From: an uncultured Candidatus Woesearchaeota archaeon
Lineage (GTDB): Archaea; Nanobdellota; Nanobdellia; Woesearchaeales; GW2011-AR9
Direction of reading: 5' to 3'
Assembly (NCBI GenBank): GCA_902529885.1
Contig: CABZYC010000002.1
Coordinates: 1-59,611, forward strand
DNA: 59,611 nt
Shown piece after piece: positions 21,421 to 57,446 of this stretch (position 1 is the stretch's first letter; each line of letters starts with the position of its first letter). The position numbers and the translations under genes were made by a program. Under the pieces are notes generated by a model. It searched no databases. It saw only the letters and a list, made by a program, of their open reading frames with translations, and had not been told where the DNA came from.

Positions 21421-21442
21421 CTACACCATGCATATAAGGACT

Positions 21443-21454: not shown

Positions 21455-21473
21455 TTATTAAAACAAAGTAAAA

Positions 21474-21548
21474 CGGGCCCGGAGGGATTTGAACCCTCGA
21501 CCTACAGCTTAGAAGGCTGTCGCCATATCCAGACTAGGCCACGGGCCC
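21474..21548 (-). tRNA. tRNA-Arg (UCU)
   Basis: Minus strand GGGCCCGUGGCCUAGUCUGGAUAUGGCGACAGCCUUCUAAGCUGUAGGUCGAGGGUUCAAAUCCCUCCGGGCCC. Anticodon stem ACAGC/GCUGU, loop CUUCUAA, T-loop GGUUCAAAUCC. Confidence 0.92.
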
Positions 21549-21574
21549 GTAAAAATAATGATAAAAAAAAAGAA

Positions 21575-39555: not shown

Positions 39556-40557
39556 TCATTGACCAAAGGTGTAATATTCGTCCTCCGAAGGAAATGAAAG
39601 ATAGACATGATCCATAGTTTTACTTATGTTCAATATATTATTACAAAATGTAATAGTTGTTTCACAGTTTAAATCAGCTAATGAATAAGAGTAAGTGTTA
39701 ACTATTTTATCAGAATAGCTTGATGATACAGACACTGTACTCGGGGATACCCTTACTTCTTCAGTAAACTCAGTTATAGTAAACGTTTCATCTGGGTTTC
39801 GTACTAAAATATTGTTCTCTTCAACCTTTATTGTTTTTGGTAAATTTGCTTCGTTGACATGAAAATCTATCTCAACACCCCCAATCATTAAACATACTGT
39901 ATTCAATGAGTGGCCGCACACATCCACTTGGGAACTTAAACAACCATAATAATCAAACAAACTTTTACATGAATCATGCCCTGATGATAATCTTCCGTTT
40001 AATTCGTCAAAATTGATTTGGTCCAATTCAAAATCGTAAGGCAATATTGCTGTATTCGTATCATCTAGCTTGTAGGTAATCTCCCCAACTAAGTCCTGGC
40101 CCATAGATACACTTATTGAAGGACAATTTACAGGGGTCCTAACAGCGTATGTTCCACCACCATAACCATCAGGACTTGCATCAAAATCCACTGTTGATGT
40201 TTGTTCTGTTACAAACGCGTCTTCGCACATGGACATAACAGGTTCAACCAAATTAACCTGAACCTCCGTAGCTTGCAAGGCACACCATTCCTGATCAAAA
40301 AGTATGGGGAGTTCACCGTTGACCCCACACAAACTAATCTCTGTGTTGACCAAGGAATCCTCTTGAATTTTATCTTGCATCTCTATCGCCCATAACCTGT
40401 GCCCGGTTATCACTGTCTTCATGAAAAGTGAATGGTCAGGAGCAGTGTCGGTCTGACCACTAACTTCATAAGATATATTTCTTAATTCGGCTGCAAGAAA
40501 TAATATACTAGCAAGTACACTAATGAGTGCAAAGCTCATTAGTAAACCACGTTTCAC
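39556..40557 (-). CDS. class III signal peptide (prepilin-like) secreted protein, 333 aa, Cys-containing
   Basis: GTG start. N-terminus MKRG|LLMSFALISVLASILFLAA. The start overlaps the upstream stop (GTGA). Confidence 0.6.
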   Translation of the reverse strand: MKRGLLMSFALISVLASILFLAAELRNISYEVSGQTDTAPDHSLFMKTVITGHRLWAIEMQDKIQEDSLVNTEISLCGVNGELPILFDQEWCALQATEVQVNLVEPVMSMCEDAFVTEQTSTVDFDASPDGYGGGTYAVRTPVNCPSISVSMGQDLVGEITYKLDDTNTAILPYDFELDQINFDELNGRLSSGHDSCKSLFDYYGCLSSQVDVCGHSLNTVCLMIGGVEIDFHVNEANLPKTIKVEENNILVRNPDETFTITEFTEEVRVSPSTVSVSSSYSDKIVNTYSYSLADLNCETTITFCNNILNISKTMDHVYLSFPSEDEYYTFGQ

Positions 40558-40886
40558 TTTTTTACCCCCACAATACTCTCACCGTAACGTACACCCCTTA
40601 AATCCGATGGGCACACACCCAAAGTTGAGTCTCCCCTTGATTTACTTGTTACCATCATGGTGTTAACATCACAAGTGTAAACTGTCTCTAAGTGTTCCCC
40701 TTTAGTATTTATTAAAACGAATGAAGACGATATTTCTTCATAATCTCTAAGAACATTGTCCAAACTATGCTCTTTCATTTCAACAATTGAGTCTGTAGAC
40801 AACCCGATTACCATCCACATTAAAATCATCAAAATGATCATGACAATACTATCAATAGTAAAACTGAAAATAAAACCGCGCTTCAT
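40554..40886 (-). CDS. class III signal peptide (prepilin-like) protein, 110 aa
   Basis: N-terminus MKRG|FIFSFTIDSIVMIILMILMWMVIGL. ATGA overlaps at both ends. Confidence 0.6.
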   Translation of the reverse strand: MKRGFIFSFTIDSIVMIILMILMWMVIGLSTDSIVEMKEHSLDNVLRDYEEISSSFVLINTKGEHLETVYTCDVNTMMVTSKSRGDSTLGVCPSDLRGVRYGESIVGVKK

Positions 40887-41350
40887 TTTAACCCTGGTGA
40901 CCCCGTCACCCTTACATACCGCGGTATTAGTTTCCCATCAACATAAATGTTTGTTAAAAGAGTAATTGTCTCTAATTTGTACCGTACAAAATTGCTTGTT
41001 TGCGCAGAATGTTCTATTGTCTCACCATCGTTCGCTAATACTTCTACTAATACAGAAGGATACTGTTGAGGTATCCTTGGATCATTATTAATGCACACAT
41101 CTAAATTTTCATTAGTAAGCCGATCGAGTTCAATGCTGTTTGGCACAACAATCTTATCTTCATAAGCAACACATCTTGGTTCAGAAGTTATACGGTCATA
41201 CATCAAAGTTAAATCCATTTTGAACGGCTCTTGTGCAATTGCATCACGATAGTCTGACACCTTGCTTACTTGATAAAAAAGTATACTCCCACTTATGAAT
41301 ACCCCCATGAACACAATCATTATTAAAGCAAGTATGTTCCCTCTCTTCAT
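40883..41350 (-). CDS. class III signal peptide (prepilin-like) protein, 155 aa
   Basis: N-terminus MKRG|NILALIMIVFMGVFISGSILFY. ATGA overlaps at both ends. Confidence 0.6.
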   Translation of the reverse strand: MKRGNILALIMIVFMGVFISGSILFYQVSKVSDYRDAIAQEPFKMDLTLMYDRITSEPRCVAYEDKIVVPNSIELDRLTNENLDVCINNDPRIPQQYPSVLVEVLANDGETIEHSAQTSNFVRYKLETITLLTNIYVDGKLIPRYVRVTGSPGLK

Positions 41351-41745
41351 GATTCACACTCCATTAATTGAATTAGGTTAGATTCACGACTGATGCATAA
41401 CTTACTGAAATTGGTCGCCGTTCCAACCACTGAAATATGTTCTGGAATGTTCATCTTTGTAGAGTATGAAAATGTAAGATATCCTGATTCTGTTATTCCA
41501 ACCTTATCATCAATCAAAGACACAGTATAATTCTTTGTATCCGATAAATCAAAAGATACGTTCTGATCAAACGGGAAAGAAGCAACAGAATATACAATGT
41601 ATCTTACTTGGTTAGCAATAAAAATTTGGTCAATAGAACTACTATCAACCAATTGTATTACAACGTACCACGATAAAATTGCAATTGATACAATCATAAT
41701 TGTGATCACCATTTTTGGTTCTACTAGTTGTGTTCCTTTTTTCAT
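41347..41745 (-). CDS. class III signal peptide (prepilin-like) protein, 132 aa
   Basis: N-terminus MKKG|TQLVEPKMVITIMIVSIAILSWYVVI. Confidence 0.55.
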   Translation of the reverse strand: MKKGTQLVEPKMVITIMIVSIAILSWYVVIQLVDSSSIDQIFIANQVRYIVYSVASFPFDQNVSFDLSDTKNYTVSLIDDKVGITESGYLTFSYSTKMNIPEHISVVGTATNFSKLCISRESNLIQLMECES

Positions 41746-41754
41746 TCATACACC

Positions 41755-41826
41755 TTAATTCCTATCATCAAACTGAGCCATCTGCTTATCGTGGTCAGTG
41801 CCACCCATCTCACCTGGGATATAATC
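41755..41826 (-). repeat. 72-nt direct repeat copy 1 (3' end of paralogue A)
   Basis: 69 of 72 nt are identical to 42656-42727. Identity drops sharply beyond that. Confidence 0.9.
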
Positions 41827-42654
41827 CATCTCAGTAGTTTGTAATGTTTGGTCGGTATAATCGCCATCATCAAAGCGTTTATGATATTGGTATACGTAAA
41901 CTGTTCGATCATTATTATCAGAACTAACATACACAGTTCTACGACGAGAAAGAATTTGGTTATTTATTGCTATACCTTTCTGATTTTCCTCATCATAGTC
42001 TAAATCATAGACATATTCTCTTGTTGCTAATCGAGCTAAACCACGCTCAATAGCCCACCCGTTTGAAAATTCATAAATCTGTTTATCACCATACACACCA
42101 GAATATTCAATATGGAACCCTAAATCGTTAAAACAACGTGCATTATCATCTGACAATATTATGTTTTCACCAGATTTACTAACTTCGAAATCTTTCATGT
42201 AACACAAACAGTTATCTTTACAAGTTGAAGGGACTGCTATCTTGACTAGAATTCCGTTATTACTTGCAAAACTGCAAGCTAACCAAGTTGCACCTAAACT
42301 TAACCATTTCCAATTCCCTACATCATCCCAGCAGTCGTCCTCTGCAACATCTTCATAATTCAAATATTTTGCTGATTCATATTTAAGATATTTCATATCT
42401 AAATTTTCACTACTATCTTCAAAAAAAACAATGGCGCTAGGGTGATCAAGTATAACAATGTGGGCACGTTCACGTTCATGCTCGCCCTCACTTGATTCCA
42501 CTAAAAATTCTTGGAACTTGTCAAACCCGTACATACTTTCATCATGGAGACTGTACGCAATCAATAAACTTACAACAAGTACAAGCAACGCTATCAAAAC
42601 GTCACCTAAATGAGCCATCATCCATGAAACTTGCCCTTTCTTTCCTACTTGCAT
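41755..42654 (-). CDS. class III signal peptide (prepilin-like) protein, 299 aa, paralogue A (start at internal ATG 42654)
   Basis: N-terminus MQVGKKG|QVSWMMAHLGDVLIALLVLVVSLLIAYS aligns with the paralogue upstream. The ORF-track extension to 42891 overlaps that paralogue and reads repeat sequence in another frame. Confidence 0.6.
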   Translation of the reverse strand: MQVGKKGQVSWMMAHLGDVLIALLVLVVSLLIAYSLHDESMYGFDKFQEFLVESSEGEHERERAHIVILDHPSAIVFFEDSSENLDMKYLKYESAKYLNYEDVAEDDCWDDVGNWKWLSLGATWLACSFASNNGILVKIAVPSTCKDNCLCYMKDFEVSKSGENIILSDDNARCFNDLGFHIEYSGVYGDKQIYEFSNGWAIERGLARLATREYVYDLDYDEENQKGIAINNQILSRRRTVYVSSDNNDRTVYVYQYHKRFDDGDYTDQTLQTTEMDYIPGEMGGTDHDKQMAQFDDRN

Positions 42655-42655
42655 A

Positions 42656-42727
42656 TTAATTCCTATCATCAAACTGAGCCATCTGCTTATCATGGTCAGT
42701 GCCACCCATTTCACCTGGGACATAATC
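42656..42727 (-). repeat. 72-nt direct repeat copy 2 (3' end of paralogue B)
   Basis: 69 of 72 nt are identical to 41755-41826. It encodes ..PGEMGGTDHDKQMAQFDDRN plus the stop. Confidence 0.9.
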
Positions 42728-43459
42728 ATGCTCTGTTGACTGCGATGTTTCATCAAACAAATTTTCTCCATCTGTCCGTTTCTGAAACTGGTACACGTAC
42801 ACTGTTGAATCATCTTGGTCATAACTGATATAAACTGTTCTTCTCCTGGCTTGTATTTGGTTACTAATTGCAGCACCCTTAGAATTTTCATCTAATTCAA
42901 CATCGTACACCTCATCATTATCTGTTACTAGCTCAGCTAATCCCCTCTCAATCAGCCATCCATTTCTCAGATCATAAATATCTTTATCACCGTACACTGC
43001 AGAAAAACTTAATGGGAAACCAATATTATTGTAACATTTAGCTTTATCTTCACTTAAAGTTGTGTAAAGGCCACTTGTACTTACCTCAAAATTTTTCATA
43101 TAACACAAACAATTTTTATCACAAACTGATGGTACTTCAACCTCAATTTGACCAATATATTGATTAAGATAGTCAACCCCATCAAAGGAATTATATGAAT
43201 AAATTAAGTTCTGCTTACCTTCAAAATAAACAATAGCGCTAGGGTTATCTAAAATGACAATATGAGCATGTTCACGTTCATAATCCCCTGAATAAGAATC
43301 TTGTAGCACGTCATGAAAATCATCAAAACCAAAAAAACTTTCATCATGAAGACTGTAACTTAACAATATACCCATGGTTACAACAAATAAGGTTAATAAT
43401 ACGTCCCCTAAATGTGCAGTCATCCATTCTATCTGTGCTCTTCTCAAAATTAATCCCAA
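42656..43459 (-). CDS. class III signal peptide (prepilin-like) protein, 267 aa, paralogue B (TTG start; alternative TTG at 43447 gives MRRAQ...)
   Basis: N-terminus ..LILRRA|QIEWMTAHLGDVLLTLFVVTMGILLSYS. The C-terminal 20 aa are identical to paralogue A. Confidence 0.6.
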   Translation of the reverse strand: MGLILRRAQIEWMTAHLGDVLLTLFVVTMGILLSYSLHDESFFGFDDFHDVLQDSYSGDYEREHAHIVILDNPSAIVYFEGKQNLIYSYNSFDGVDYLNQYIGQIEVEVPSVCDKNCLCYMKNFEVSTSGLYTTLSEDKAKCYNNIGFPLSFSAVYGDKDIYDLRNGWLIERGLAELVTDNDEVYDVELDENSKGAAISNQIQARRRTVYISYDQDDSTVYVYQFQKRTDGENLFDETSQSTEHDYVPGEMGGTDHDKQMAQFDDRN

Positions 43460-43465
43460 TCACCA

Positions 43466-43711
43466 TTAATCGTCATCGTCATCATCACCAGATGACCTGT
43501 CGCATTTTGAAGTGTCACTAGTATCTGTGTCCATCTGATCAGGGATCCCATCACAATCTATATCTCTTGTAACTGCATCAAAACCTTGATTAAACCCATC
43601 TTTACCTTTACCTATGCTTCCAACTGAAAAGCCTATTAAAAGAAGTAAAATTATCACTGCTAACACCCCAAAGATGATTATCATCCATACTGCATCATTC
43701 CCTCGTTTCAT
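43466..43711 (-). CDS. class III signal peptide (prepilin-like) mini-protein, 81 aa, with acidic Asp-rich Ca-binding-like tail
   Basis: The internal ATG at 43711 forms ATGA with the upstream stop. N-terminus MKRG|NDAVWMIIIFGVLAVIILLLLIGF. Tail: DIDCDGIPDQMDTDTSDTSKCDRSSGDDDDDD. Confidence 0.6.
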   Translation of the reverse strand: MKRGNDAVWMIIIFGVLAVIILLLLIGFSVGSIGKGKDGFNQGFDAVTRDIDCDGIPDQMDTDTSDTSKCDRSSGDDDDDD

Positions 43712-44796
43712 GAAAATTTCTCCGCGTACGTTTCCACTTGACAACCCGCATTATTAGCACCGGTTAATGAATCCAATACAATATAACTATAATATCTCTG
43801 TGTCATCAAATCACCGTTATAAAATTCAGTTTTAGCGTCAACCTCAATATTATTCTCTATCTTACTCCCATAATACCAAACAGCAGCAAGCCCACCTACA
43901 ACCAAGAATGCACCTACTACACAGCCCACCCCCGTAGCACATGCACCTACACCCGCAGCTACAGTTGAACTACCAGCAGCGGCAGCTGCTGTGGTAGCGG
44001 CAGCAATTGTAGAATAAGTTACAGCTGCACCCACACCTATCGCACCCACACCAGCTAATAATTTAGCAGAATCCCATAAATATTCAGGTGGTTCGTAATG
44101 GTTCTTACTAAAATACAAAATTGCCATAACATCTTCATTACGTATTGGTTCTTGGATCATGAAAACAGTCTCACCACCAAACAACCCACCACCTTGCAGA
44201 TAATCAATATATTTTATCCCCATCCTAGGACTTTCTTCAGCTGAAATGAATTCGTGCATCTCCCATGCATTTATCATCATGTTTTGGCTTTCATTGTTAA
44301 CAAATTCACTCAAAGAAACAGTTGCACACAGAAAACAGTGTGGATCATCAGAATTCCACCCCAATACTTGGAACGCTTCATCCTTAACACTTGTGAAATA
44401 GTCGTCTTGACGTGCTTCGTTCATCATGTAACGACATTCAACCATCTTCTCTGCAATCATGTGCATAGCCTTCTCCTTCATCAAAAGGTCCGCACCATCT
44501 TTATCAAACGTTTTCTGTAGCCAGACCCAAATCCCTTTATCAGGATACAATATTGAATCCACTGTGTTACATAGGACAGGTGCCCAACTTACTTCTACAC
44601 AATTACTACCATCATCTGAACATTCAGATGTTGCTATCGAACTTGATAGTCTTGACTGTAAACTTGTACGGCATATAGAAACAGGGCTTCTATCTTCACC
44701 AAGTTCAAGTAAAGGAATTAAAATTGAAAGTACTGCGCCAATAGCAATTATTGTTAAAATCATTAAACCTAATGATTGCACTTGACCTCTTCTCAT
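43708..44796 (-). CDS. class III signal peptide (prepilin-like) protein, 362 aa, with C-terminal Gly/Ala-rich hydrophobic segment; paralogue of 44835-45827
   Basis: N-terminus MRRG|QVQSLGLMILTIIAIGAVLSILIPLL. The G/A/V-rich stretch is at residues about 246-310 (nt 43867-44061). Confidence 0.6.
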   Translation of the reverse strand: MRRGQVQSLGLMILTIIAIGAVLSILIPLLELGEDRSPVSICRTSLQSRLSSSIATSECSDDGSNCVEVSWAPVLCNTVDSILYPDKGIWVWLQKTFDKDGADLLMKEKAMHMIAEKMVECRYMMNEARQDDYFTSVKDEAFQVLGWNSDDPHCFLCATVSLSEFVNNESQNMMINAWEMHEFISAEESPRMGIKYIDYLQGGGLFGGETVFMIQEPIRNEDVMAILYFSKNHYEPPEYLWDSAKLLAGVGAIGVGAAVTYSTIAAATTAAAAAGSSTVAAGVGACATGVGCVVGAFLVVGGLAAVWYYGSKIENNIEVDAKTEFYNGDLMTQRYYSYIVLDSLTGANNAGCQVETYAEKFS

Positions 44797-44805
44797 GTAA
44801 TATAG

Positions 44806-44822
44806 ATGTTGTAATAAATAAA
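44806..44822 (-). promoter_or_regulatory. A/T-rich TATA-like element upstream of 43708-44796
   Basis: The minus strand reads gcctTTTTATTTATTacaacatctatattacATG. This lies in a 38-nt gap, one of the larger intergenic gaps in the array. Confidence 0.3.
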
Positions 44823-44834
44823 AAGGCTTTCGGT

Positions 44835-45827
44835 TTACTGCTCTTTACAACCAATATGTTGAACTGTTTCCATGTCATCTAGTATAAAATACCCATATGT
44901 CCTTGTATCAAGCATCCCCTCTGAACCATAGAAATATTCTGCTTTGATTTGAGAATTATAATTGATTCTGCCAGCAACTAGCCCTGTAGCAACAGATCCA
45001 CCTACAGCACCAACAACAACCGTAGTTATACCAACACAAGCAGGGGCGGTAGCTAAACAAACCAATCCACCGACTGCACCTATCGCAGCACCAGCCACAC
45101 CATAACTTAAACCAACTTCTGCCACTTCCATTATATCAACGGGGACACCCCCATCACTATTTCGACCCAAATAGCTGATCCCATATAACCCATCATTAAC
45201 TATATCTGTTGCAATCAGATATGCACCTTCGCCACCAAGGTTCCCACCCCCATTTAAGTAATCTGAATAAGTTATACCCTGAGATAATTCTTCATTGAGT
45301 AAGAATTGATGGAATTCTTGCGCAGTAATAGTATAATTCAATTCCTTGACTGCCACACTATAACAAGTAAAACATTTTGGTTTGTTTTCATCAAAACCGA
45401 ACAATTCCCAAAATTCGCTTCCTAAATTTGAAAAAACATCTTCATGCCGGTTATCTGTAAAAGTATATTTGCATGCTGCCAAAGACTCAGCAAATTTACG
45501 CATGACACTTTCTTTTTGACCTTCTTCTATTCTATCTTCAGTAAAAATTATACTTGAAAACCACGCATCTTGGTATATTGCAGAAGGAGTGAATTTTAGA
45601 TCTTGCTTTCTACAAGATAAACCTCCAAACGAAAACGTATTCTCTTCAGTAGTCTGCGCGGATGTTAACACCCTATTTTCTATTGAAGAACGACACATGT
45701 TCTCAATAGATTTATCGCTCATGTACCCAAAAGATTCCATCATAAAACCTAACATTGCAATCATGGAAAAACCAATCAAAAGTATGCCTGCTAAAATAAA
45801 CATTACGTTTGTTTGCGCTCTCATCAT
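44835..45827 (-). CDS. class III signal peptide (prepilin-like) protein, 330 aa, with C-terminal Gly/Ala-rich hydrophobic segment
   Basis: N-terminus MMRA|QTNVMFILAGILLIGFSMIAMLGF. The G/A/V-rich stretch is at residues about 236-286 (nt 44970-45122). ATGA overlap with the upstream gene. Confidence 0.6.
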   Translation of the reverse strand: MMRAQTNVMFILAGILLIGFSMIAMLGFMMESFGYMSDKSIENMCRSSIENRVLTSAQTTEENTFSFGGLSCRKQDLKFTPSAIYQDAWFSSIIFTEDRIEEGQKESVMRKFAESLAACKYTFTDNRHEDVFSNLGSEFWELFGFDENKPKCFTCYSVAVKELNYTITAQEFHQFLLNEELSQGITYSDYLNGGGNLGGEGAYLIATDIVNDGLYGISYLGRNSDGGVPVDIMEVAEVGLSYGVAGAAIGAVGGLVCLATAPACVGITTVVVGAVGGSVATGLVAGRINYNSQIKAEYFYGSEGMLDTRTYGYFILDDMETVQHIGCKEQ

Positions 45828-46840
45828 CCGTTACACGTAGGAATTATGCTATAATCCTCATTCCCAACAATACATTTATTCCAAGCACACCCTTCCCCAG
45901 GAGTCTTACCACTTGTATACCCTTTAGGTGTATGGCGGGGAAAATCATTAGTACCCACATATGAGCCAAAATCATCCTCAAACATTTCATCAATTGCATC
46001 AGGATGAAATCCACAATGATCATAGCTTTCTGCAGAAGTTGGACTATCATATGCAGGTATTATACAGACATATCCTTTTTTGGGACTATAAATCCAGTCA
46101 CCACTGCCAGTATCCCAAAAATCACCTAGTGCGCCCACTTCTAGTTTATAAGGTTCTTCCCCATCAAGTATACCGTCCACCACCATATAATCTTCATCCT
46201 TGTCGCTCCCTGAATTTAAAATATAAGTCCATTGATTAGTCTCATCATTATGCGTCCACCCTTTCCAATCTTGGTAAGTCATATCTTCACCTAGATCTAG
46301 TTGTTCCCAATACCAATTATGAAAGTTTTCTGCATATTCATCACCGTGACTATCAGTACCACCAACAGAACATAACACTAATCCCGGAATATTAAAAGTA
46401 TCTTTATGTTGCTGACCAATTAATGTTTGTATCCTCACCCCTGACTCAAAAGTAGTTGATGCCTCAGATTCAATAAACTTGATTGTTAATAATTCCTCAG
46501 TTAAACCAGACGGGTTTGGTAACCTATACATACAAGGTGTGTCATCACCATATCTGTATCCACCACTATATTCTCTATCCCTTACATGAGATAATGTTTT
46601 GTTTAAATCGTCTAAATACTTTCTTAGATCCCCAGATATTTTTGTGCTTGAAAGAGCTAAATTGGTGTATTGCCTTTGTGTTTCGGATAAAGTCTGATTC
46701 ACATTTCCTACAACATCCATGATACTATGTTCACCCTCACTCATAGTGTCACCAACAAAACCCTTTATTGTAAGGCCAGTTACACTACAAAAAATTAGTG
46801 ATACTAAAATTAACCAAAGTCCGGCGGCACCACGTCTCAT
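45824..46840 (-). CDS. class III signal peptide (prepilin-like) protein, 338 aa, Trp/Asp-rich
   Basis: N-terminus MRRG|AAGLWLILVSLIFCSVTGL. ATGA overlap with the upstream mini-ORF. Confidence 0.55.
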   Translation of the reverse strand: MRRGAAGLWLILVSLIFCSVTGLTIKGFVGDTMSEGEHSIMDVVGNVNQTLSETQRQYTNLALSSTKISGDLRKYLDDLNKTLSHVRDREYSGGYRYGDDTPCMYRLPNPSGLTEELLTIKFIESEASTTFESGVRIQTLIGQQHKDTFNIPGLVLCSVGGTDSHGDEYAENFHNWYWEQLDLGEDMTYQDWKGWTHNDETNQWTYILNSGSDKDEDYMVVDGILDGEEPYKLEVGALGDFWDTGSGDWIYSPKKGYVCIIPAYDSPTSAESYDHCGFHPDAIDEMFEDDFGSYVGTNDFPRHTPKGYTSGKTPGEGCAWNKCIVGNEDYSIIPTCNG

Positions 46841-46971
46841 CCAACAAGCGTCCTCTGGGTTAGATCACCCATCCCATTATGGAATTTATATAATAATCCT
46901 ACGCCTACAAAAACAAAAAATAATACTATTAAAAGAACCACAATGTACCAAAAAACTTCACCACGTTTCAT
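46837..46971 (-). CDS. 44-aa mini prepilin-like ORF (not in ORF track)
   Basis: Hand translation: MKRG|EVFWYIVVLLIVLFFVFVGVGLLYKFHNGMGDLTQRTLVG. The start overlaps the upstream stop (TAATG) and the stop overlaps the next start (ATGA). Confidence 0.5.
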   Translation of the reverse strand: MKRGEVFWYIVVLLIVLFFVFVGVGLLYKFHNGMGDLTQRTLVG

Positions 46972-47084
46972 TATATTATTGCTTCCTTTATTCGGTTCAA
47001 AAATAAAATACCAAAAACAATGATTGCAATTATCAATAATAAGTATGCAACCAATGTCATACCTGGCATTTCACCTTTCTTCAT
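46971..47084 (-). CDS. 37-aa mini prepilin-like ORF (not in ORF track)
   Basis: Hand translation: MKKG|EMPGMTLVAYLLLIIAIIVFGILFLNRIKEAII. TAATG overlaps at both ends. Confidence 0.5.
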   Translation of the reverse strand: MKKGEMPGMTLVAYLLLIIAIIVFGILFLNRIKEAII

Positions 47085-47335
47085 TAATTAGCCTCAATAC
47101 CTAAACAACATAACTGGCCCGTTCCACATTCAAAAGAGGATACTACCGATCCATTCAGAACTTTACATGCTTCTTTACTAGCTTTACATTCGCCCCCAGC
47201 AACTTCGCAACCACTAATACCTTGTTCCAAAACCGTTGTTTTACCTGTGAACATAAGTAGGAGGACCGCTAGGACCACTAAAGCTATCACCGCTCCAATA
47301 ATGATCCAAAAAACGTTTGCTTGTCCTTTTTCCAT
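47084..47335 (-). CDS. class III signal peptide (prepilin-like) protein, 83 aa, Cys-rich C-terminus
   Basis: N-terminus MEKG|QANVFWIIIGAVIALVVLAVLLLMF. C-terminus: CEVAGGECKASKEACKVLNGSVVSSFECGTGQLCC. Confidence 0.6.
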   Translation of the reverse strand: MEKGQANVFWIIIGAVIALVVLAVLLLMFTGKTTVLEQGISGCEVAGGECKASKEACKVLNGSVVSSFECGTGQLCCLGIEAN

Positions 47336-47343
47336 CTATCTAC

Positions 47344-47685
47344 CTAATCCCAATTACAACCGTAACTTTCACAGTTCGCTTCTGAATCTCTACCATCGTT
47401 ACATTCATCTGCACGATCGTCAATAAACTCTAACGCTTCCAACTGTTCACTGTCTTCACCGTCACCCCATAAATTGTAGAACTGTTGTTCATCTGCTAAA
47501 CCAGGATGACATTTCCCAAACATGATTGATAATGCTTGATACCGTGCACCTGCCTCTTTTGGTACTGTATCATCGAATGACCCTAACCTACCAATAAAAA
47601 TAGCAGTTAATACTACTAAAACAATTAATGCTAACGCCGCAATAATAATTACATTTAACGACATCCCTTGCGCTCTTTTTACCAT
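47344..47685 (-). CDS. class III signal peptide (prepilin-like) protein, 113 aa (start taken at MVKRAQG)
   Basis: N-terminus MVKRA|QGMSLNVIIIAALALIVLVVLTAIFI. The ORF-track start at 47721 adds 12 residues. Confidence 0.55.
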   Translation of the reverse strand: MVKRAQGMSLNVIIIAALALIVLVVLTAIFIGRLGSFDDTVPKEAGARYQALSIMFGKCHPGLADEQQFYNLWGDGEDSEQLEALEFIDDRADECNDGRDSEANCESYGCNWD

Positions 47686-47739
47686 AATTTCACCATCTAT
47701 TAATGTAAAAAATGGAAACAACGTATTTAAAATTTGTTG

Positions 47740-48249
47740 TTAATCACATATAATTAACATTGTTTGCGCTAATAAGTTATTACCTTCACCTAGATTTAGG
47801 CTAAACATTCCGCTACTATCATAATCCCTACTACGCATACAATCTTTACTTTTTATTTGGTAAAACAATTCTGGGTCACTACCCACACTTGTTTTGTACA
47901 CACGAAGTTCGTAATGTTTCCCCCATTGTAACACAGTCTCGTCCAACATTTTACTTGATTTATCTACAAACAACTCACATGCGTCTAGCTCACTATCACA
48001 AGTGTTACTGTCACCACCCGCCATTATCAAACAGTCTTCCAATATTTGTTCACCCATACTCATTGCCTTAGTCCTACACTCCACTTCAGTGTTAAGTATA
48101 GCGCTCATGGTACTGTAAGCTAACCCTTTACGTACAAACACACTCTTATCTGTCTCAGAATCAATTGCAAACTTTGCAAAAAATAAAAAGCCAATACTAA
48201 TCATTATCACAATTATCACCATCCCAATTATTTCTTGTTGACCCCTCAT
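47740..48249 (-). CDS. class III signal peptide (prepilin-like) protein, 169 aa
   Basis: N-terminus MRG|QQEIIGMVIIVIMISIGFLFF. ATGA overlap with the upstream gene. Confidence 0.6.
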   Translation of the reverse strand: MRGQQEIIGMVIIVIMISIGFLFFAKFAIDSETDKSVFVRKGLAYSTMSAILNTEVECRTKAMSMGEQILEDCLIMAGGDSNTCDSELDACELFVDKSSKMLDETVLQWGKHYELRVYKTSVGSDPELFYQIKSKDCMRSRDYDSSGMFSLNLGEGNNLLAQTMLIICD

Positions 48250-48815
48250 GAATATGCCTCCACATGAATATATCCATACCCAAACTCGCCGTACACAGTC
48301 TGGTTACTACTATTAAGCCCAAGGTTGTTCCGTAAGGTTATCACAAAAAATGTTGGTTCTTTATCTGCAGGTACTTTCTCACCATTCTCCAAAGTTACAG
48401 TTTTTACCTGTTCATACACAGTCCAATTACGTTTTTCAGGATAAATTTGGTGAACATAAATTCCGCTGTACCCAAACATGTCAAAATAATAGTCTTGTTT
48501 ATGACTATCAATAAACTGTTCAATACCTCTCAATTTTTGTATATCCATACAATTGTCTACTGATTCCGATTCACCGTTACTACAATATAACTCAGATAAA
48601 AATAAAGCAGTTAAACTAATATCTATTGCTTGCTGAGCAAGCATCTCTGTTTCTTGTTCTTGCAAACTGATTTGTTGATATTTAAAAAAAAATATTATAC
48701 CGAACACTACTAAAATGAAAAATATGAACATGGTCACTAAACTTTCCATCATTTGCATTTGAGCTTTAGTATACACGCGTGCACCCCGCTGCCGAAAGTT
48801 CTTGGTTAAGATCAT
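48246..48815 (-). CDS. probable class III signal peptide protein, about 189 aa (start uncertain)
   Basis: The ORF-track start at 48860 is TTG. ATG at 48815 gives MILTKNFRQRGARVYTKA|QMQMMESLVTMFIFFILVVFGIIFFF. ATG at 48758 would avoid the overlap with the upstream gene but loses the basic region. Confidence 0.45.
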   Translation of the reverse strand: MILTKNFRQRGARVYTKAQMQMMESLVTMFIFFILVVFGIIFFFKYQQISLQEQETEMLAQQAIDISLTALFLSELYCSNGESESVDNCMDIQKLRGIEQFIDSHKQDYYFDMFGYSGIYVHQIYPEKRNWTVYEQVKTVTLENGEKVPADKEPTFFVITLRNNLGLNSSNQTVYGEFGYGYIHVEAYS

Positions 48816-49869
48816 ATATTTTTGTTGCTTGGTCTCGTAAAGTGAATTGACCACACGCAAGATAATTAGTGGTACACTGTTGCGCAGCCAAACTTAATGT
48901 CCGATACATAGTAGAATCATCTTTCAAAATTGATAAACAATCTGCATATTCTTCTCTACTTTCATACGCGCCAACCATTAAGTCAACTTTATCTTGTAAC
49001 ACTTCGGACACTAATGACAACCGTTTAAACGCCTTCATCATGTTACACCTAAACGTTTCAGCGTTGCCAGCAAACAAAGCTGCGTAAGCAACTGCATCAC
49101 GTTCAGAACCCGTGCTTACTAAGGGTGTCCATTCACCTTCATTACCACCTTCAACGTACCAAGCATCCCCGCGTTTCACATAGTATAACACTGCGCCATC
49201 ATGAAAGCGTACGGCGCTCACTTGATCATTGTTTAGTACAGAAAGTTCTAATGGCACCGCTTCTTCGTGTTCTATAAAAGGTATCCCGGACTCTAACAAA
49301 ATGAGCCTGACGTGATACTCACCATTATATTCTACTTCCCCTACATTATCTATGAATTCAACGTTTAACCCATTCGTACTGTTCATAAGTTCAATGTAAA
49401 AATCGCTTGACCCATCACTAACAACATAATATTTAGTATTTTCACTCGTAACAAACAAAAAGTCCATCACTTTAAACGGTAATTTGTAAGGCATACTCCA
49501 TAAGATCATTTTGTTCGTCTTAACATTTAATGGGGCGACTACTACAGATAATGGACTTTCAATACTTGCAGAAGATCCACTAATACCATAATAACTAAAC
49601 ACATCATATATCCCGCCGGCTTCATCAAGCTCACAACGAAATTGAAACACTTCGTTCCTTACACCTGATGTGTCTAGAAAATTTTTAGTATTTTCTGCAA
49701 CCGTAGACCCAGTGAAAATATTTTCAAGGATGTTCATCACTTTATAATTCAAACGTTTCTCAGACATTTCTTTTTGCTGAGTTATTATCATTATAAAAAA
49801 AAGTAAAATGGCCGCACCAGCCACCATGACATAAATCCAATTAAATTGTACTGTTACCTGGCCTTTCAT
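48766..49869 (-). CDS. class III signal peptide (prepilin-like) protein, 367 aa
   Basis: N-terminus MKG|QVTVQFNWIYVMVAGAAILLFFIMII. ATGA overlap with the upstream gene. Confidence 0.6.
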   Translation of the reverse strand: MKGQVTVQFNWIYVMVAGAAILLFFIMIITQQKEMSEKRLNYKVMNILENIFTGSTVAENTKNFLDTSGVRNEVFQFRCELDEAGGIYDVFSYYGISGSSASIESPLSVVVAPLNVKTNKMILWSMPYKLPFKVMDFLFVTSENTKYYVVSDGSSDFYIELMNSTNGLNVEFIDNVGEVEYNGEYHVRLILLESGIPFIEHEEAVPLELSVLNNDQVSAVRFHDGAVLYYVKRGDAWYVEGGNEGEWTPLVSTGSERDAVAYAALFAGNAETFRCNMMKAFKRLSLVSEVLQDKVDLMVGAYESREEYADCLSILKDDSTMYRTLSLAAQQCTTNYLACGQFTLRDQATKIYDLNQELSAAGCTRVY

Positions 49870-50363
49870 TCGTATACCAATTGACTTAAATATGCTGCGT
49901 CACCACGACCTTCTAACCTCAAAGTAAATTTGCCATTCTCTAAAGGTAAACATAAATATCCATCGTCCATACGAAGTTTGTACGTTTTAATTGCTGCAGC
50001 TGCAGGTGGGTCCAAAAACACGTTTTGGTCAGCAGCGCCCCATGACCCAGCAGTTTCCCATGCGTCACAAGCTATCGCACTTTTAGCACATAATGACTCG
50101 TCATACGTTGCATCCATATCTACAAAACAAATTTCTGTGTATTTCACAGGTAAACTGAAATCTAATGTTCGCGCTGCACCATAATCACTGTAAATCTTCT
50201 TGACATTATTCTCAAGGTTAGTTTTAAACTGCATGAACTCCACCATTTCTCCCTTCTCCATCAAATCGTTCACCATGTTAACACCAAATATAAGTATAAA
50301 TGCAAAACTTATACCTGCAATCATGTAAATGAATACTTGTTGTACCGCCATCCCTCGTTTCAT
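49866..50363 (-). CDS. class III signal peptide (prepilin-like) protein, 165 aa
   Basis: N-terminus MKRG|MAVQQVFIYMIAGISFAFILIFGV. ATGA overlap with the giant gene's stop. Confidence 0.6.
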   Translation of the reverse strand: MKRGMAVQQVFIYMIAGISFAFILIFGVNMVNDLMEKGEMVEFMQFKTNLENNVKKIYSDYGAARTLDFSLPVKYTEICFVDMDATYDESLCAKSAIACDAWETAGSWGAADQNVFLDPPAAAAIKTYKLRMDDGYLCLPLENGKFTLRLEGRGDAAYLSQLVYE

Positions 50364-53300
50364 TTTGATAACTTCCTTAATTTTTTGAATACTTCGTTCG
50401 CATCTTTTGCGTTAACTTCATTCTTTTTATGTGCACTACTCAAATTCTCAAGTTTATCAAACAAATTTGTATCAACCTGTTTTTTAATTTCAGGTTTGTT
50501 TGCTTCAAAATGTTTTGTTACTTCCGCTACTTTCTTGTGCACTGGAAGATCTTCGTGCGCAGTCCGCATTAAGTGTTCAACACTTTTTTTAGCAGTGAAA
50601 GACGAAAATAATTTTGATCGAGAACTTTTTTTAGTACGCTTACTAAAGTTTTCTTCTAAGCTGCGTAGTCGGTCACCAACACTCACTTTCTTTTGTGTTA
50701 ATGGTTGAGCTTTTGACTGTGAAACATTCGGTTTCATAGATTTTGGATTGGCCATTTTATTTTGTGGGGAGACTTGCCTTGACTGAACCTGTTTGTTGTA
50801 CAAAGGTTTTGAACCAAACAGTGCTCTTCCTTGAGGCATCTGAGTATAAAAGTAGCTTAAGAATCCACTTGAACCACCCATCATCAATAAAGATAATAAT
50901 AATACAATTATTGCACCAAGATTATCGTTCGGTGAAGAAGATGATGATGAAGGGATATCCAATACTTCTGTTTCGACCACAGGTTCAGTGAATGTGTCAT
51001 CAATACAAGGGTCTTTACCTGCTTGGTACTCTTCCAGATTGTTTAAACCGTCACTATCAAAATCTTCGTCAGTATCAGACACACCGTTCATATCAGTATC
51101 TAAAGCCTCGTGGTCCAATTCACAGCCAGGTGCAGTACTAAGTTTTTCCCAGCTGTCTGGTAACCCGTCACCATCAGTATCAGTTGTATCAGATGTTTCT
51201 TGACGAGCACAACCAGTACTATCAACCTGTGCACCTGCACTTGTTTCAGTACAAATGTCACATTGGTCAGCTACACCATCACCGTCAACATCTTCAAACT
51301 CAATCTTCTGGTTACCGGTAACATTGTTCCCTTTAGTGTCAGAAGCAAAATAACATAACCATTGGTTCTGTTCTACAATTATGCCCGATTGTTTATCTTG
51401 GGTAGGGTCACAATCAGCAATAGAAGTACTAGTCCCATACAAAATATCGTCGCAGCCAGCGTCATCACTACATTCAAGGCTTATTACTGAGCCCATACAC
51501 TGTTGAGCTTGAGTCACAACTTGAATATCTGGGCCAAAAATGTCCATTGCACAATCTTCGCTGCTACCGTCACCAGCAACAAAACCGTCTGTATAAACAT
51601 ATTCCCCTACGTTACCTGCAGAATCAACAGCTAACACTTCAATGTAATATGGTGTCCCATTAACAAGAGTCACACCTTCAATGTCTGCAGTAAGATTTAA
51701 TGTTCCTGACGAAATTAAGATTGTATCAGTAGCATTTTCAAGTCCAAGGTACTCCCGTAACTGGCTTGAACCGGGACTGTTTCCTTGGTAAAGGTTATAC
51801 TCATAATGGCTTATGTTTGGTTCGTTAACAGTTACAGATAATGGGACAGTATGTAATCCACAACTTTCCTCACCATCATTCGTGCTTGTTATAGACGGAG
51901 GTGTTTGGTCAACATAAAATTCGATTGTATCATCATCATAGTTCTCTGATATTAAACAAGATACGATATAATGGTACGGATCATTACTCTCAACAAGGTC
52001 ACCAATGTATTTTGTGTGCACTGTGTTCCCTGAAACAGTGAAATCTTCACCGTCAACTTCACATAAAGCGTTCTTACTAGTTTGGACTTCTAACGTTACT
52101 TCTTTCCCATCAATTATGCCAGTTGGACTCATTGATTCAATGTAACCCACTACTGCATAATCAACAGAGAAATCTATTGTTTCTTGATTACTTACTAACC
52201 CCGCACCATTCTCACACTGTACCGCTAATGTGAAGTCAGCAGTAGCACCGTCAACATCAAAACTGTATTCACTAACGTGTGTTGTGTTCAAAATGTTGTC
52301 GTCATACCCTTCAAAACTATAACGCATATTTTCGTAATCGTAACCGTCATTAGTTACATCGTCAAACTTACAAACAGTTTTATCGTCTGTGGTAACAGTT
52401 AATTGTACCGTCCGCATGTCCGTCACTAATTCTGGTTCCACGTTAGTTGTAAGAATAATTGGTTTTGAAGGATCGTACTCCAAATTCATTTTTTGGGCAG
52501 GGCCAACTTCACCAAGCGGATCTTTACATTTTACATACAACGTTTTTTTACCACCATCTTCGTCATAAGCAGCTAACACGTCCCCAGGGAAATCTTCGTA
52601 CAAATAATAATTAGTTTTATCTTCGTACAAATCAAACTTTTTATATTCTGGTTGAGAATCAAAATCAAACTCAGGATTGAAATCGTAGGTACAAGCTTCA
52701 GTGTTAAGTTTACTCATTATGACCCAATCAAAAACAGGGTCAGAACTTACCCCGTACTGTTCACCACCATAATAATAAAGTTCAGGTAAAACCATGTTTA
52801 TACCAAATCCTTCAACAATAATCTCTCCACATTGTACGTCTACAAGGTTTTCCACTGTATCAGTTGAATAATAACACATCCTCGTTGTGTTTGTAATAGT
52901 GACAGTACCTGAATACACTTCATATTTTTCGTCACTCCGACTCTCGCACCCTTCACCAAAACAGTAAAACGTCTCTGCACAATCAAAACCTTCTGCAGAA
53001 CATTCAAAGTCTATATTCACTGATTCAATCCAGTATAATTCCCATTCATCCCCAACCGGTAATTCTTCACGGTCACCCTCCGTCAAAATTGCTTGCGTGT
53101 CAGGCGCAGTAAAGTCTACTACGAAATCAAAATAATCTTCCATTACTTCATCTGTATAACTCTCAACACATACAGCTTTCAAAAAGCCAGCATAGTCACC
53201 CTCATAAAAATTAGGTATGCTACTTGTACTATGATTCTTATTTTCGTCATCACTCGTATAAAACTCAGCCAATTTTGTCCATGCAACACCGTCATTAGTC

Positions 53301-56494: not shown

Positions 56495-56510
56495 ATTAAT
56501 AAGAATTTAA

Positions 56511-56520
56511 TGTTTATAAA
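56511..56520 (-). promoter_or_regulatory. TATA-box-like element (TTTATAAACA) 17-26 nt upstream of the giant gene start
   Basis: The minus strand reads aatcTTTATAAACAttaaattcttattaatgtGTG. It lies in the 28-nt gap after the preceding stop. Confidence 0.4.
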
Positions 56521-56522
56521 GA

Positions 56523-57446
56523 TTAGTTCCGTTTACGCCGCAATATTGCACGTAACTCTTCTGTTCGACGGATACGTTCAATTGCATTTAACTGGTCTCG
56601 CGTCTTAATCTGTGGTTTAGGTGGACGATGACCTGCCCGTGCAATTGTTGGTTTAAGAGGTTTAGCTAAAGGTTGTGATGGGCGAACATAGCTTCTTCGC
56701 TTTTTAGGTTGTGGTGCCCGATATTTTTTAGGGTTAACTTTCATCGTTACTGCTTTTGAATTGTACACACCTTTTGGTTGTTGTGACCCTTTCAATGCCA
56801 GATATAAAAAAAGTAGTAATGCGCCTAACGCGACAGGAACGTAAGGAAAAGTTACAGGGTCACCTTCAATACTATTAAGTTTGGTTATTGTATTGTTACT
56901 TACATTACTTTCTTCAGAAATGCTTGAGTTCACAATATAATTGATTAAAGGGTCACCTGTAGCCACGTAATCAATTTCGTCTTTCTGTACAATCTCATAA
57001 TCTTTTGCAGTGTTACAATCACATTCACCCTGACTATAAGAATATAATTCTGTACCTTCAGTTTGCGCTTGTATAATACAATCAAACTCTGTACTTAATT
57101 CTGTGCAAGTCTCTTCTGTTTGACAACAGCCAGTTTTACAACTATCTTTTGTAGCAATACCGTAATCGCACATTCCACGAACGTTGAGGGTACAAGTGTC
57201 TTTACAAACAACTAATTGACATTCATCTAATATTGTACAAGAATCACTGTATAAGTATACGTCATCTAACACTTTTCCTGTATACTCCGCTTCAGTTAAA
57301 GCTTCATTCAACGTTAATTCACTACAATAAGCCGCACTTTCTTTGTCAACGTAGCATCCAAGGCCGCTAACTAGCGGAACCACAAACACCATCAATACAA
57401 ACACCGTCAAGGGTACCTTTACCATCCACATCACACCAGTTTCCAT
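56523..57446 (-). CDS. 307-aa Cys-rich type I membrane protein sharing the giant protein's N-terminal module
   Basis: Signal MVKVPLTVFVLMVFVVPLVSG|LGCY (alternative ATGs at 57431 and 57425). Cys module at residues about 30-145, TM at about 200-220, and a Pro/Lys/Arg-rich tail. Confidence 0.7.
   Translation of the reverse strand: METGVMWMVKVPLTVFVLMVFVVPLVSGLGCYVDKESAAYCSELTLNEALTEAEYTGKVLDDVYLYSDSCTILDECQLVVCKDTCTLNVRGMCDYGIATKDSCKTGCCQTEETCTELSTEFDCIIQAQTEGTELYSYSQGECDCNTAKDYEIVQKDEIDYVATGDPLINYIVNSSISEESNVSNNTITKLNSIEGDPVTFPYVPVALGALLLFLYLALKGSQQPKGVYNSKAVTMKVNPKKYRAPQPKKRRSYVRPSQPLAKPLKPTIARAGHRPPKPQIKTRDQLNAIERIRRTEELRAILRRKRN

What the first reader, a model, noticed from the sequence alone, without database searches (positions are those of the whole stretch)
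46837..47084. Two unannotated mini-prepilin ORFs (37 and 44 aa) chained by TAATG/ATGA overlaps
**Seen in the sequence**
- In the apparent gap between ORFs 45824-46840 and 47084-47335, the minus strand encodes two small ORFs.
- The first is MKKGEMPGMTLVAYLLLIIAIIVFGILFLNRIKEAII (46971-47084).
- The second is MKRGEVFWYIVVLLIVLFFVFVGVGLLYKFHNGMGDLTQRTLVG (46837-46971).
- Each ATG overlaps the preceding stop, so there is no non-coding nucleotide between four consecutive genes.
- Both have the same K-[KR]-G motif plus hydrophobic helix as their neighbours, with Glu right after the putative cleavage site.

**Inference**
After cleavage the products would be only about 33 and 40 aa, essentially a bare pilin helix. 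That is reminiscent in size of Flp-type pilins, but I cannot claim homology. Such minimal subunits are easily missed by gene callers. They could be the major, most abundant filament subunit or an assembly primer.
Basis: partly seen in the sequence, partly recalled or inferred. Interest (0 to 1): 0.62.

Follow-up and report, generated by a model that had tools for sequence, protein, structure and literature searches.

The report
Two conserved helix-only mini-prepilin genes
Two tiny genes (37 and 44 codons) in a pilin-like operon of an uncultured Woesearchaeota-type archaeon are real and under strong purifying selection, recur at the same operon position in related genera, and probably encode bare-helix pilin-like subunits smaller than any characterised pilin.

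Summary
Minus-strand ORFs 46971-47084 (37 aa) and 46837-46971 (44 aa) exist as described and are chained TAATG / TAATG / ATGA between an 83-aa and a 338-aa pilin-like gene.

Both are genuine genes.
- Across 7 haplotypes from other metagenomes there are no indels, changes sit mainly at third codon positions, and dN/dS is 0.06 and 0.04.
- Two more distant contigs keep both ORFs at 76-81% identity, although synonymous sites differ at 55-73% and the flanking 338-aa protein is only 62-66% identical.
- The leader changes KKG to KRA, which keeps the [KR][G/A] cleavage-type motif.

"Unannotated" is not supported: public gene calls already include both.

The module [quoted passage not shown] recurs in three other genera of the same family. 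Similar 38-51-aa ORFs sit in pilin-like operons across the order.

The genome has one A24 prepilin peptidase, one secretion ATPase and a candidate platform protein elsewhere. AlphaFold2 gives single helices.

Best reading (about 0.55): class-III-signal, helix-only minor subunits of a type-IV-filament-like apparatus. Cleavage and incorporation are untested. No curated pilin profile or Flp motif matches.

The parts
46971..47084 (-). mini-1 (g37): 37-aa ORF. Leader MKKG, then E-M-P-G, a 21-residue hydrophobic helix, and the tail NRIKEAII.
   Evidence: ORF and sequence. dN/dS is 0.06 across 7 haplotypes, with variable sites 5/0/13 by codon position. dN/dS is 0.11-0.19 against L015/L016. The AF2 helix spans residues 7-36 with pLDDT 87. 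Positional equivalents of 38-49 aa occur in other genera.
46837..46971 (-). mini-2 (g44): 44-aa ORF. Leader MKRG, then E-V-F-W-Y, a 23-residue hydrophobic helix, and a tail ending in the invariant MGDLTQRTLVG.
   Evidence: ORF and sequence. dN/dS is 0.04, with variable sites 4/1/17 by codon position. dN/dS is 0.06-0.12 against L015/L016 at pS 0.64-0.73. AF2 gives a single helix over residues 3-43, pLDDT 82.5. Family alignment A7 has 15 members of 41-51 aa.
47084..47335 (-). Upstream partner g83: 83-aa class-III-like short pilin with a Cys-rich cap. It precedes the mini pair in the conserved module.
   Evidence: dN/dS 0.09. Weak Pfam Inhibitor_I68 hit, 24.6 bits against a cut-off of 25. The same gene type stands before the minis in L089 and L087 (pair) and L039 (mini-1 only).
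45824..46840 (-). Downstream partner g338: 338-aa class-III-like protein whose ATG overlaps the g44 stop (ATGA).
   Evidence: homologues at 62-91% identity; same position in L015/L016.
47082..47086 (-). TAATG stop/start overlap between g83 and g37.
   Evidence: Invariant in all 12 aligned sequences.
46969..46973 (-). TAATG stop/start overlap between g37 and g44. It is TGATG in haplotypes L010-L014, so the stop is kept as TGA, and TTGA in L016.
46837..46840 (-). ATGA start/stop overlap between g44 and g338.
39556..59601 (-). Context: a roughly 20-kb co-directional array. At least 19 products, the minis included, begin with a [KR][G/A] + hydrophobic-helix N-terminus. A 2044-aa surface protein is also encoded here.

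Best explanation
g37 and g44 are two real, translationally coupled genes. They form a conserved 'mini-1 / mini-2' module inside the Woesearchaeota-type pilin-like surface operon.

Each product is a minimal prepilin-like protein. It has a 4-residue basic leader ending in Gly (Ala in relatives), one hydrophobic helix of about 21-23 residues, and a tail of only 8 residues (mini-1) or 16 residues (mini-2).

Inferred mechanism:
- The leader stays in the cytoplasm and the helix inserts in the membrane.
- The genome's single A24 prepilin peptidase removes the leader. This leaves peptides of 33 and 40 residues that are essentially a bare pilin alpha-1 helix.
- The ATPase and platform encoded elsewhere then thread these helices, together with the roughly 17 larger pilin-like proteins of the operon, into the core of a type-IV-filament-like fibre or short pseudopilus.
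- There they act as globular-domain-less minor subunits, for example spacers or base/primer subunits.
- The conserved mini-2 tail (MGDLTQRTLVG here; xxLxDxFxxLF-like in relatives) would contact neighbouring subunits.

Shown: coding status, purifying selection, conservation of the module, N-terminal likeness to the neighbours, presence of the peptidase and ATPase, and single-helix models.

Inferred: cleavage, topology, incorporation, and minor rather than major role.
For: - **Coding and selected.** The 636-nt alignment of 12 sequences (7 haplotypes) has no indels. dN/dS is 0.061 (g37) and 0.039 (g44), while the other two frames give 0.6-24 and are full of stops. Against L015/L016, pS is 0.55-0.73 but pN is 0.09-0.18. 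The antisense 95-aa ORF accumulates replacements and a stop.
- **More conserved than the flank.** g37 is 76-81% and g44 80% identical in L015/L016. The 338-aa neighbour is 62-66% identical.
- **Motif behaviour.** KKG changes to KRA in g37 of L015/L016, keeping basic -2 and G/A -1. In the 15-member mini-2 alignment, Gly at -1 is nearly invariant.
- **N-terminal likeness to bona fide neighbours.** In the leave-out PSSM the minis rank 21 and 31 of 5,342 ORFs. Profile searches with the minis hit mainly positions 1-40 of larger pilin-like proteins of the order. The 41-aa relative P0046 shares MKKGEVNWVI(I/V)G with the 69-aa Cys-containing P0050.
- **Conserved module.** With an independent anchor (the hairpin pilin), all six other loci carry at least one 38-57-aa ORF of this type. 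Two same-family genomes show 'Cys-rich short pilin, mini, mini, 244-267-aa protein, hairpin pilin'; a third (L088) shows the same order from the mini pair onward, its upstream gene lying outside the fetched locus.
- **Machinery present.** There is an A24 peptidase at C5:22688-23437 and a T2SSE-type ATPase at C1:26226-28526 followed by a 724-aa polytopic protein.
- **Structure.** AF2 gives one continuous helix for each mini.
- **Precedent.** The helix-only Tad pilin of 45 residues forms a filament (PMC10710030).
Against: - No curated class-III or pilin profile (Pfam, NCBIfam) matches the minis, nor any neighbour. The 'prepilin' call therefore rests on a short motif plus a hydrophobic helix, which is low-information.
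- Basic residues flank the helix on both sides (NRIK; K..H..R), so topology is ambiguous.
- The 8-residue tail of g37 cannot shield a hydrophobic helix at a filament surface.
- Residue +1 is Glu rather than the Gln seen in EppA substrates, and there is no Glu at +5 (PMC3875500).
- PF00482 (platform protein) was not detected in the genome.
- There are no expression, proteomic or processing data.
Confidence: 0.55

Rival explanations
1. They are real small single-pass membrane proteins that are never cleaved or polymerised. In this reading they are accessory or anchoring subunits of the assembly platform, or of the giant TM-anchored surface protein. They would resemble pilin N-termini only because both are short basic stretches followed by a TM helix.
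For: - No curated pilin or class-III profile matches.
- Positive charges lie on both sides of the helix, and the ectodomains are very short.
- PDB profile searches return only generic TM helices.
- The selection and synteny data are equally compatible with this role.
Against: - Strict retention of [KR][G/A] at the same distance from the helix, including a G-to-A swap.
- The N-terminal block is shared with Cys-capped short pilin-like proteins.
- The minis are embedded between, and translationally coupled to, class-III-like genes.
Confidence: 0.3
2. They are the major, most abundant filament subunit, forming a Tad-like helix-only pilus.
For: - A 45-residue helix-only pilin can build a filament (PMC10710030).
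- The minis are among the best-conserved products of the operon.
Against: - Two ordinary-sized pilin-like genes (177 and 197 aa) lie immediately downstream of the prepilin peptidase and are the more conventional major-pilin candidates.
- The g37 tail is too short to provide a polar filament surface.
- The minis sit mid-operon with only modest SD-like signals.
- No abundance data exist.
Confidence: 0.08
3. They are not functional as proteins. They would be chance ORFs, or coupling/leader ORFs whose act of translation matters but whose product does not.
For: Very small size and a hydrophobic, low-complexity composition. The overlap junctions would suit pure translational coupling.
Against: - dN/dS is 0.04-0.19, with near-saturated synonymous sites.
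- The invariant MGDLTQRTLVG tail is encoded by differing codons.
- There are no indels in 14 loci.
- The architecture is conserved across genera despite sequence turnover.
Confidence: 0.03

Closest known systems
Tad/Flp (type IVc) pilins, e.g. Caulobacter crescentus PilA (45 mature residues; PMC10710030)
   Same: Helix-only subunits with no globular domain: a short class-III-type leader ending in Gly, a hydrophobic N-terminal half and a short, more polar C-terminal part. g44 (40 mature residues) is at the lower end of the 40-60 range.
   Different: There is no Flp motif (G/XXXXEY with Glu5-Tyr6) and no Flp_Fap or other Pfam hit. g37 (33 mature residues) is below the known range. The setting is archaeal (DPANN). 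The minis sit in a roughly 20-gene operon of heterogeneous pilin-like proteins, not beside a Tad machinery. Filament formation is unproven.
Small EppA-dependent pilins of Methanococcus maripaludis (MMP1685/EpdE, MMP0528, MMP0903, MMP1283; PMC3875500)
   Same: Archaeal, very short class-III-signal proteins encoded apart from the ATPase and platform genes. The leader ends in Gly.
   Different: Those are 67-76 aa (54-63 mature), carry the DUF361/Class_IIIsignal domain with +1 Gln and +5 Glu, and carry N-glycosylation sequons. The minis here are 37 and 44 aa, have +1 Glu, have no sequon and have no DUF361 match.
Geobacter sulfurreducens PilA-N (truncated pilin that pairs with a separately encoded PilA-C; discussed in PMC10710030)
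   Same: A pilin reduced to the alpha-1 helix. This raises the possibility that a separately encoded partner supplies the outer surface.
   Different: No partner protein was identified here, the minis are shorter, and there is no sequence similarity.
Class-III-signal 'pilin-like' proteins of the conserved Woesearchaeota surface operon (hypothetical proteins in NCBI MAG annotations)
   Same: Same operon, same N-terminal motif, same translational coupling. Homologues P0042, P0045, P0046 and P0048 are annotated only as 'hypothetical protein [Candidatus Woesearchaeota archaeon / archaeon GW2011_AR4]'.
   Different: The minis lack any ectodomain, whereas the other members carry domains of 60 to over 700 residues.

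Membership tests
Archaeal class III signal peptide (prepilin-like) proteins | Short basic leader with K/R at -2 and G/A at -1 | tested here: met
   The leaders are MKKG and MKRG. KRA replaces KKG in L015/L016. Gly at -1 is nearly invariant in the 15-member alignment A7.
Archaeal class III signal peptide (prepilin-like) proteins | About 20 hydrophobic residues forming a helix directly after the cleavage site | tested here: met
   Hydrophobic stretches of 21 and 23 residues. AF2 helices span residues 7-36 and 3-43. PSSM ranks are 21 and 31 of 5,342.
Archaeal class III signal peptide (prepilin-like) proteins | Match to curated N-terminal profiles (Pfam Class_IIIsignal/DUF361, Pilin_N; NCBIfam prepilin models) | tested here: not met
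   No hit at E<=1 for either mini, and none for the neighbours.
Archaeal class III signal peptide (prepilin-like) proteins | Leader removed by an A24 prepilin peptidase (PibD/EppA/FlaK type) | not testable with these tools
   The enzyme gene is present: PF01478, 40.2 bits, at C5:23123-23422. The 249-aa ORF contains WDLHSREVPD and GGADAK stretches. No processing data exist.
Archaeal class III signal peptide (prepilin-like) proteins | Genomic association with other pilin-like genes and with type IV filament machinery | tested here: met
   The minis are embedded in an array of 17 other class-III-like genes. ATPase, candidate platform and peptidase lie on other contigs of the same 677-kb genome. 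PF00482 itself was not detected.
Tad/Flp pilins | Mature length 40-60 residues with no globular domain | tested here: inconclusive
   g44 would be 40 residues, which is at the limit. g37 would be 33, which is below the range (range from PMC10710030). Both are modelled as single helices.
Tad/Flp pilins | Flp motif after the cleaved Gly (hydrophobic block with conserved Glu5-Tyr6) and a Flp_Fap profile match | tested here: not met
   The mature N-termini would be EMPGMT and EVFWYI, with no E5-Y6. There is no Pfam hit.
M. maripaludis-type short pilins (DUF361, EppA substrates) | +1 Gln, +5 Glu, DUF361 domain | tested here: not met
   +1 is Glu (Asp in L015 g44), +5 is Met or Tyr, and there is no DUF361 hit. 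The criteria come from PMC3875500.
Type IV filament structural subunit (pilin in the strict sense) | Incorporated into an extracellular filament | not testable with these tools
   The organism is uncultured.

The most novel reading that the evidence does not exclude
The mini-1/mini-2 pair would be the smallest type IV filament subunits known, at 33-47 mature residues. They would be an archaeal, helix-only pilin class that either forms the hydrophobic core or base of the Woesearchaeal contact apparatus, or polymerises on its own. Because Tad pili are thought to have come from archaea, such bare alpha-1 pilins could represent the archaeal counterpart, or an independent reinvention, of Flp-type pilins. 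They would also define the minimal sequence needed for type IV assembly.
Probability: 0.15. Interest if true: 0.7.

Novelty: new variant of a known kind. Interest (0 to 1): 0.45.

Why it matters
DPANN archaea are thought to depend on physical contact with hosts, yet the latest census finds recognisable type IV filament systems to be rare in them (PMC13705601).

The Woesearchaeal pilin-like operon is a leading candidate for that contact apparatus. This work shows that two of its best-conserved parts are peptides of 37-51 residues that curated models do not recognise and that some gene callers skip.

If they are processed and polymerised, they would lower the size limit of type IV pilins. They would also give a minimal substrate for studying archaeal prepilin peptidase specificity and filament core packing. 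If they are not, they define a conserved pair of micro-membrane-proteins of an unknown machine.

Either way, they should be included in parts lists, structural models and proteomic databases for these organisms.

Tried and rejected
- **Chance or non-coding ORFs:** rejected by dN/dS, codon-position bias and frame conservation.
- **Antisense 95-aa ORF 46719-47006 (+) as the real gene:** rejected. It carries many replacements and a premature stop in L013/L014.
- **Structured RNA:** no Rfam family in the region.
- **Orthologues in GTDB representative genomes by direct search:** the 338-aa flank finds nothing in 60 relatives. The close-family profiles A2 and A3 find only weak N-terminal or TM matches plus a few small ORFs in 300 genomes of the order.
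- **Genome contigs and metagenome-contig scans with A3:** no tblastn-confirmed locus.
- **Pfam and NCBIfam:** nothing meaningful. T4SS_pilin scores 15 bits at E=0.019, below its cut-off, and looks like generic TM similarity.
- **PDB sequence search with family profiles:** only unrelated TM helices. A fold search of a single helix was judged meaningless and was not run.
- **Shine-Dalgarno evidence:** both minis have an SD-like 4-mer upstream, but only 27% of long ORFs in this genome do (12% at random), so this is weak.
- **Gene fission of a larger pilin:** rejected. The downstream 338-aa gene has its own class-III-like N-terminus, and the minis are separate in every relative.
- **The search of protein representatives:** not used. 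A low-information profile of about 45 positions cannot reach significance against 1.8 billion sequences.
Full report
**1. Observation**

The window's minus strand carries two ORFs exactly as described.
- 46971-47084 encodes the 37-aa product MKKGEMPGMTLVAYLLLIIAIIVFGILFLNRIKEAII.
- 46837-46971 encodes the 44-aa product MKRGEVFWYIVVLLIVLFFVFVGVGLLYKFHNGMGDLTQRTLVG.

The stop of the upstream 83-aa gene and the g37 start form TAATG. The g37 stop and g44 start form TAATG. The g44 stop and the start of the 338-aa gene form ATGA. Four genes therefore follow each other with no intergenic base.

**2. Organism and setting**

- The window is contig C2 of a 677-kb, 23-contig genome that is 95% complete.
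- It has archaeal markers: RadA, topoisomerase VI A/B and archaeal RNase P RNA.
- Homologues of the small ORFs in the same GTDB order are labelled 'Candidatus Woesearchaeota archaeon' or 'archaeon GW2011_AR4'. This agrees with earlier notes of this scan.
- A genome-wide scan for M..[KR][GA] followed by at least 14 hydrophobic residues gives 28 ORFs. Thirteen of them lie between 40.8 and 59.6 kb of this window.
- Reading the N-termini one by one gives 17 class-III-like proteins besides the two minis.
- The genome has one T2SSE-type ATPase (C1:26226-28526). A 724-aa polytopic membrane protein with no Pfam hit follows it.
- It has one A24 prepilin peptidase (C5:22688-23437). Two 197- and 177-aa pilin-like genes follow it.
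- PF00482 was not detected.

**3. Are they genes?**

Both exact sequences are already in the public protein collection (NCBI source, 59,611-nt contig). Each has three further variants at 90% identity or more.

I fetched 11 contigs carrying these variants (L004-L014; JGI, ENA and Logan assemblies) and aligned 636 nt spanning g83, g37, g44 and the start of g338.
- There are 7 haplotypes and no indels.
- Variable sites by codon position are 5/0/13 in g37 and 4/1/17 in g44.

| Gene | Nei-Gojobori dN/dS |
|---|---|
| g37 | 0.061 |
| g44 | 0.039 |
| g83 | 0.089 |
| start of g338 | 0.19 |

- The two alternative frames give ratios of 0.6-24 and contain many stops.
- The g37 stop changes from TAA to TGA in five loci, so a stop is retained.

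A search with the 338-aa flank found three more distant homologues at 62-69% identity. Two of their contigs (L015, L016) cover the upstream region, and both contain both small ORFs in place.
- g37 is 76-81% identical and g44 80% identical.
- Pairwise pS is 0.55-0.73 against pN of 0.09-0.18, giving dN/dS of 0.06-0.19.
- The C-terminal MGDLTQRTLVG of g44 is invariant although its codons differ.
- In L016, g44 starts with TTG inside a TTGA overlap.
- Gene callers missed g37 on L015 and both ORFs on L016. The 'easily missed' remark is therefore partly right, but 'unannotated' is not.
- The antisense 95-aa ORF is not conserved, and no Rfam family lies here.

**4. Are they prepilin-like?**

- The leader motif behaves as a class III motif should. 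KKG becomes KRA in L015/L016, so basic -2 and small -1 are kept.
- A log-odds matrix built from the 17 other N-termini of the cluster, without the minis, ranks g37 21st and g44 31st among 5,342 ORFs of at least 30 aa. Above them are the training set plus a paralogue on C7, the peptidase-linked pilin on C5 and one other protein.
- Profile searches with the minis over 300 genomes of the order mostly hit model positions 1-25 to 1-42 at the extreme N-terminus of larger open frames of 100-900 aa. These begin MKKG/MKKA + hydrophobic helix.
- The 41-aa relative P0046 shares MKKGEVNWVI(I/V)G with the 69-aa Cys-containing P0050. This fits the idea that mini-2 is a pilin N-terminal module without a head domain.
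- AlphaFold2 with the family alignments gives one continuous helix for each mini: g44 residues 3-43 at pLDDT 82.5, and g37 residues 7-36 at pLDDT 87.3. That is what a bare alpha-1 would look like, but any TM peptide would look the same.
- Against membership, no Pfam or NCBIfam pilin or class-III model matches the minis or any neighbour. PDB sequence searches return only generic TM helices.

**5. Conservation beyond the species**

First, some hits of the mini profiles were themselves small ORFs inside pilin-like arrays.
- G062 has a 49-aa ORF and a 41-aa ORF chained by ATGA. They lie after a hairpin-type pilin and before two Cys-rich short pilins.
- G099 has a 48-aa ORF after a hairpin pilin.
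- G134 has a 40-aa ORF, MTRKKGQVPGLETIIYLVLIITFFVFVYIIVKKIFLGSAP. It resembles g37 and follows three Cys-rich short pilins.
- In several other loci a 46-51-aa ORF of this type lay next to the larger protein that had been hit, and so was found incidentally (G323, G060, G047).

Second, I used an independent anchor, the 330-aa 'hairpin' pilin-like protein. It matched six other genomes, and all six loci contain at least one ORF of this type, 38-57 aa.

Two genomes of the window's own family reproduce the full gene order of the window, and a third reproduces it from the mini pair onward:
- G014: Cys-rich short pilin (84-95 aa), then 39 aa, then 46 aa, then a 244-aa protein, then the hairpin pilin.
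- G333: the same order, with ORFs of 42 and 46 aa.
- G220: 42 aa and 47-57 aa ORFs in the same order; the locus ends at the first mini, so the upstream gene was not seen.

The family alignments show two types.

| Type | Leader | Hydrophobic stretch | Tail | Alignment |
|---|---|---|---|---|
| mini-1 | [KR][KR][G/A], then 4-5 residues | about 21 residues | [NSK][RK] plus 5-7 residues | A8, |
| mini-2 | [KR][KR][G/A] | about 22 residues | 12-16 residues, amphipathic-looking by eye (SLLDRIFKLF, AIKDTLGTIFNLF, LADFIRGIF, GDLTQRTLVG) | A7, |

The database search with the family profile recovered these proteins as called genes. They are named only 'hypothetical protein'.

**6. Interpretation**

The shown facts are:
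- two real small genes under strong constraint;
- a fixed place in a conserved pilin-like operon;
- an N-terminus of the same kind as their neighbours';
- a prepilin peptidase and an assembly ATPase in the genome.

The most economical mechanism is that they are class III signal peptide proteins processed to 33- and 40-residue helices, which then enter the filament or pseudopilus core as domain-less minor subunits.

Helix-only pilins are not hypothetical. Tad pilins are 40-60 residues, and the 45-residue C. crescentus PilA forms a filament whose surface is made by the polar C-terminal half of the helix (PMC10710030). The shortest characterised archaeal pilins have 54-63 mature residues (PMC3875500). 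g44 is at the lower limit of the Tad range and g37 is below it. With only 8 tail residues, g37 could not cover its own hydrophobic surface, so a role alongside larger subunits is more plausible than a homopolymer.

The main rival is that they stay in the membrane as uncleaved accessory subunits. The ambiguous charge distribution and the lack of any profile match keep that rival alive at about 0.3.

The 'major pilin' idea is disfavoured because conventional-size pilin-like genes sit next to the peptidase. A purely regulatory or chance origin is essentially excluded.

**7. Novelty**

The kind of thing is known: class-III-signal pilin-like proteins, and helix-only pilins. Known family criteria are not met. 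There is no Flp motif, no DUF361, and no +1 Gln or +5 Glu. The sizes are smaller than any characterised pilin, and the paired mini-1/mini-2 module appears undescribed in the papers searched. The recent archaeal T4F census reports such systems as rare in DPANN (PMC13705601).

I rate it a new variant of a known kind, of moderate interest. The functional claim remains inferential.

**8. Limits**

- Family alignments of short hydrophobic peptides are low-information. Orthology across genera rests mainly on synteny and architecture.
- The survey of the order is a sample (300 genomes, 3-kb loci), not a census.

Noticed in passing
window 47084-47335 (-): The 83-aa class-III-like protein upstream of the minis has a Cys-rich cap (6-8 Cys, ending ..CC.G). 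It gives a near-threshold Pfam hit to Inhibitor_I68 (carboxypeptidase inhibitor): 24.6 bits against a cut-off of 25. Homologues with the same cap occur in tandem copies in other Woesearchaeota loci (L039, L063, L071).
   Followed up: partly
genome contig C5:21261-23437 (outside the window): The only A24 prepilin peptidase (249 aa) is followed on the same strand by a 197-aa gene, an 85-aa membrane ORF and a 177-aa gene. The 197-aa and 177-aa products are pilin-like and match no Pfam or NCBIfam pilin family. They are plausible major pilins.
   Followed up: partly
genome contig C1:26226-30730 (outside the window): A 766-aa T2SSE-type ATPase is followed by a 724-aa polytopic membrane protein that gives no PF00482 (T2SSF/TadC) hit. 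It is presumably a highly divergent platform protein.
   Followed up: no
L016:390-524 and L010-L014 junctions: Start-codon plasticity at the g37/g44 junction. L016 uses TTG within TTGA. Haplotypes L010-L014 have ATGATGA, offering two adjacent ATGs (44- or 45-aa product) together with a TAA-to-TGA stop switch.
   Followed up: yes
window 46719-47006 (+): A 95-aa antisense ORF overlaps both minis. It is not conserved, showing many replacements and a premature stop in L013/L014.
   Followed up: yes
window 16993-17250 (-); 21347-21549 (-): Archaeal RNase P RNA (135 bits), followed elsewhere by adjacent tRNA-Cys(GCA) and tRNA-Arg(TCT).
   Followed up: no
protein P0049 (JGI contig, relative of G062's 41-aa ORF): This 37-aa variant is identical to P0046 for its first 21 residues and then diverges completely. 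It looks like a frameshifted copy or an assembly error of a mini-2 homologue.
   Followed up: no
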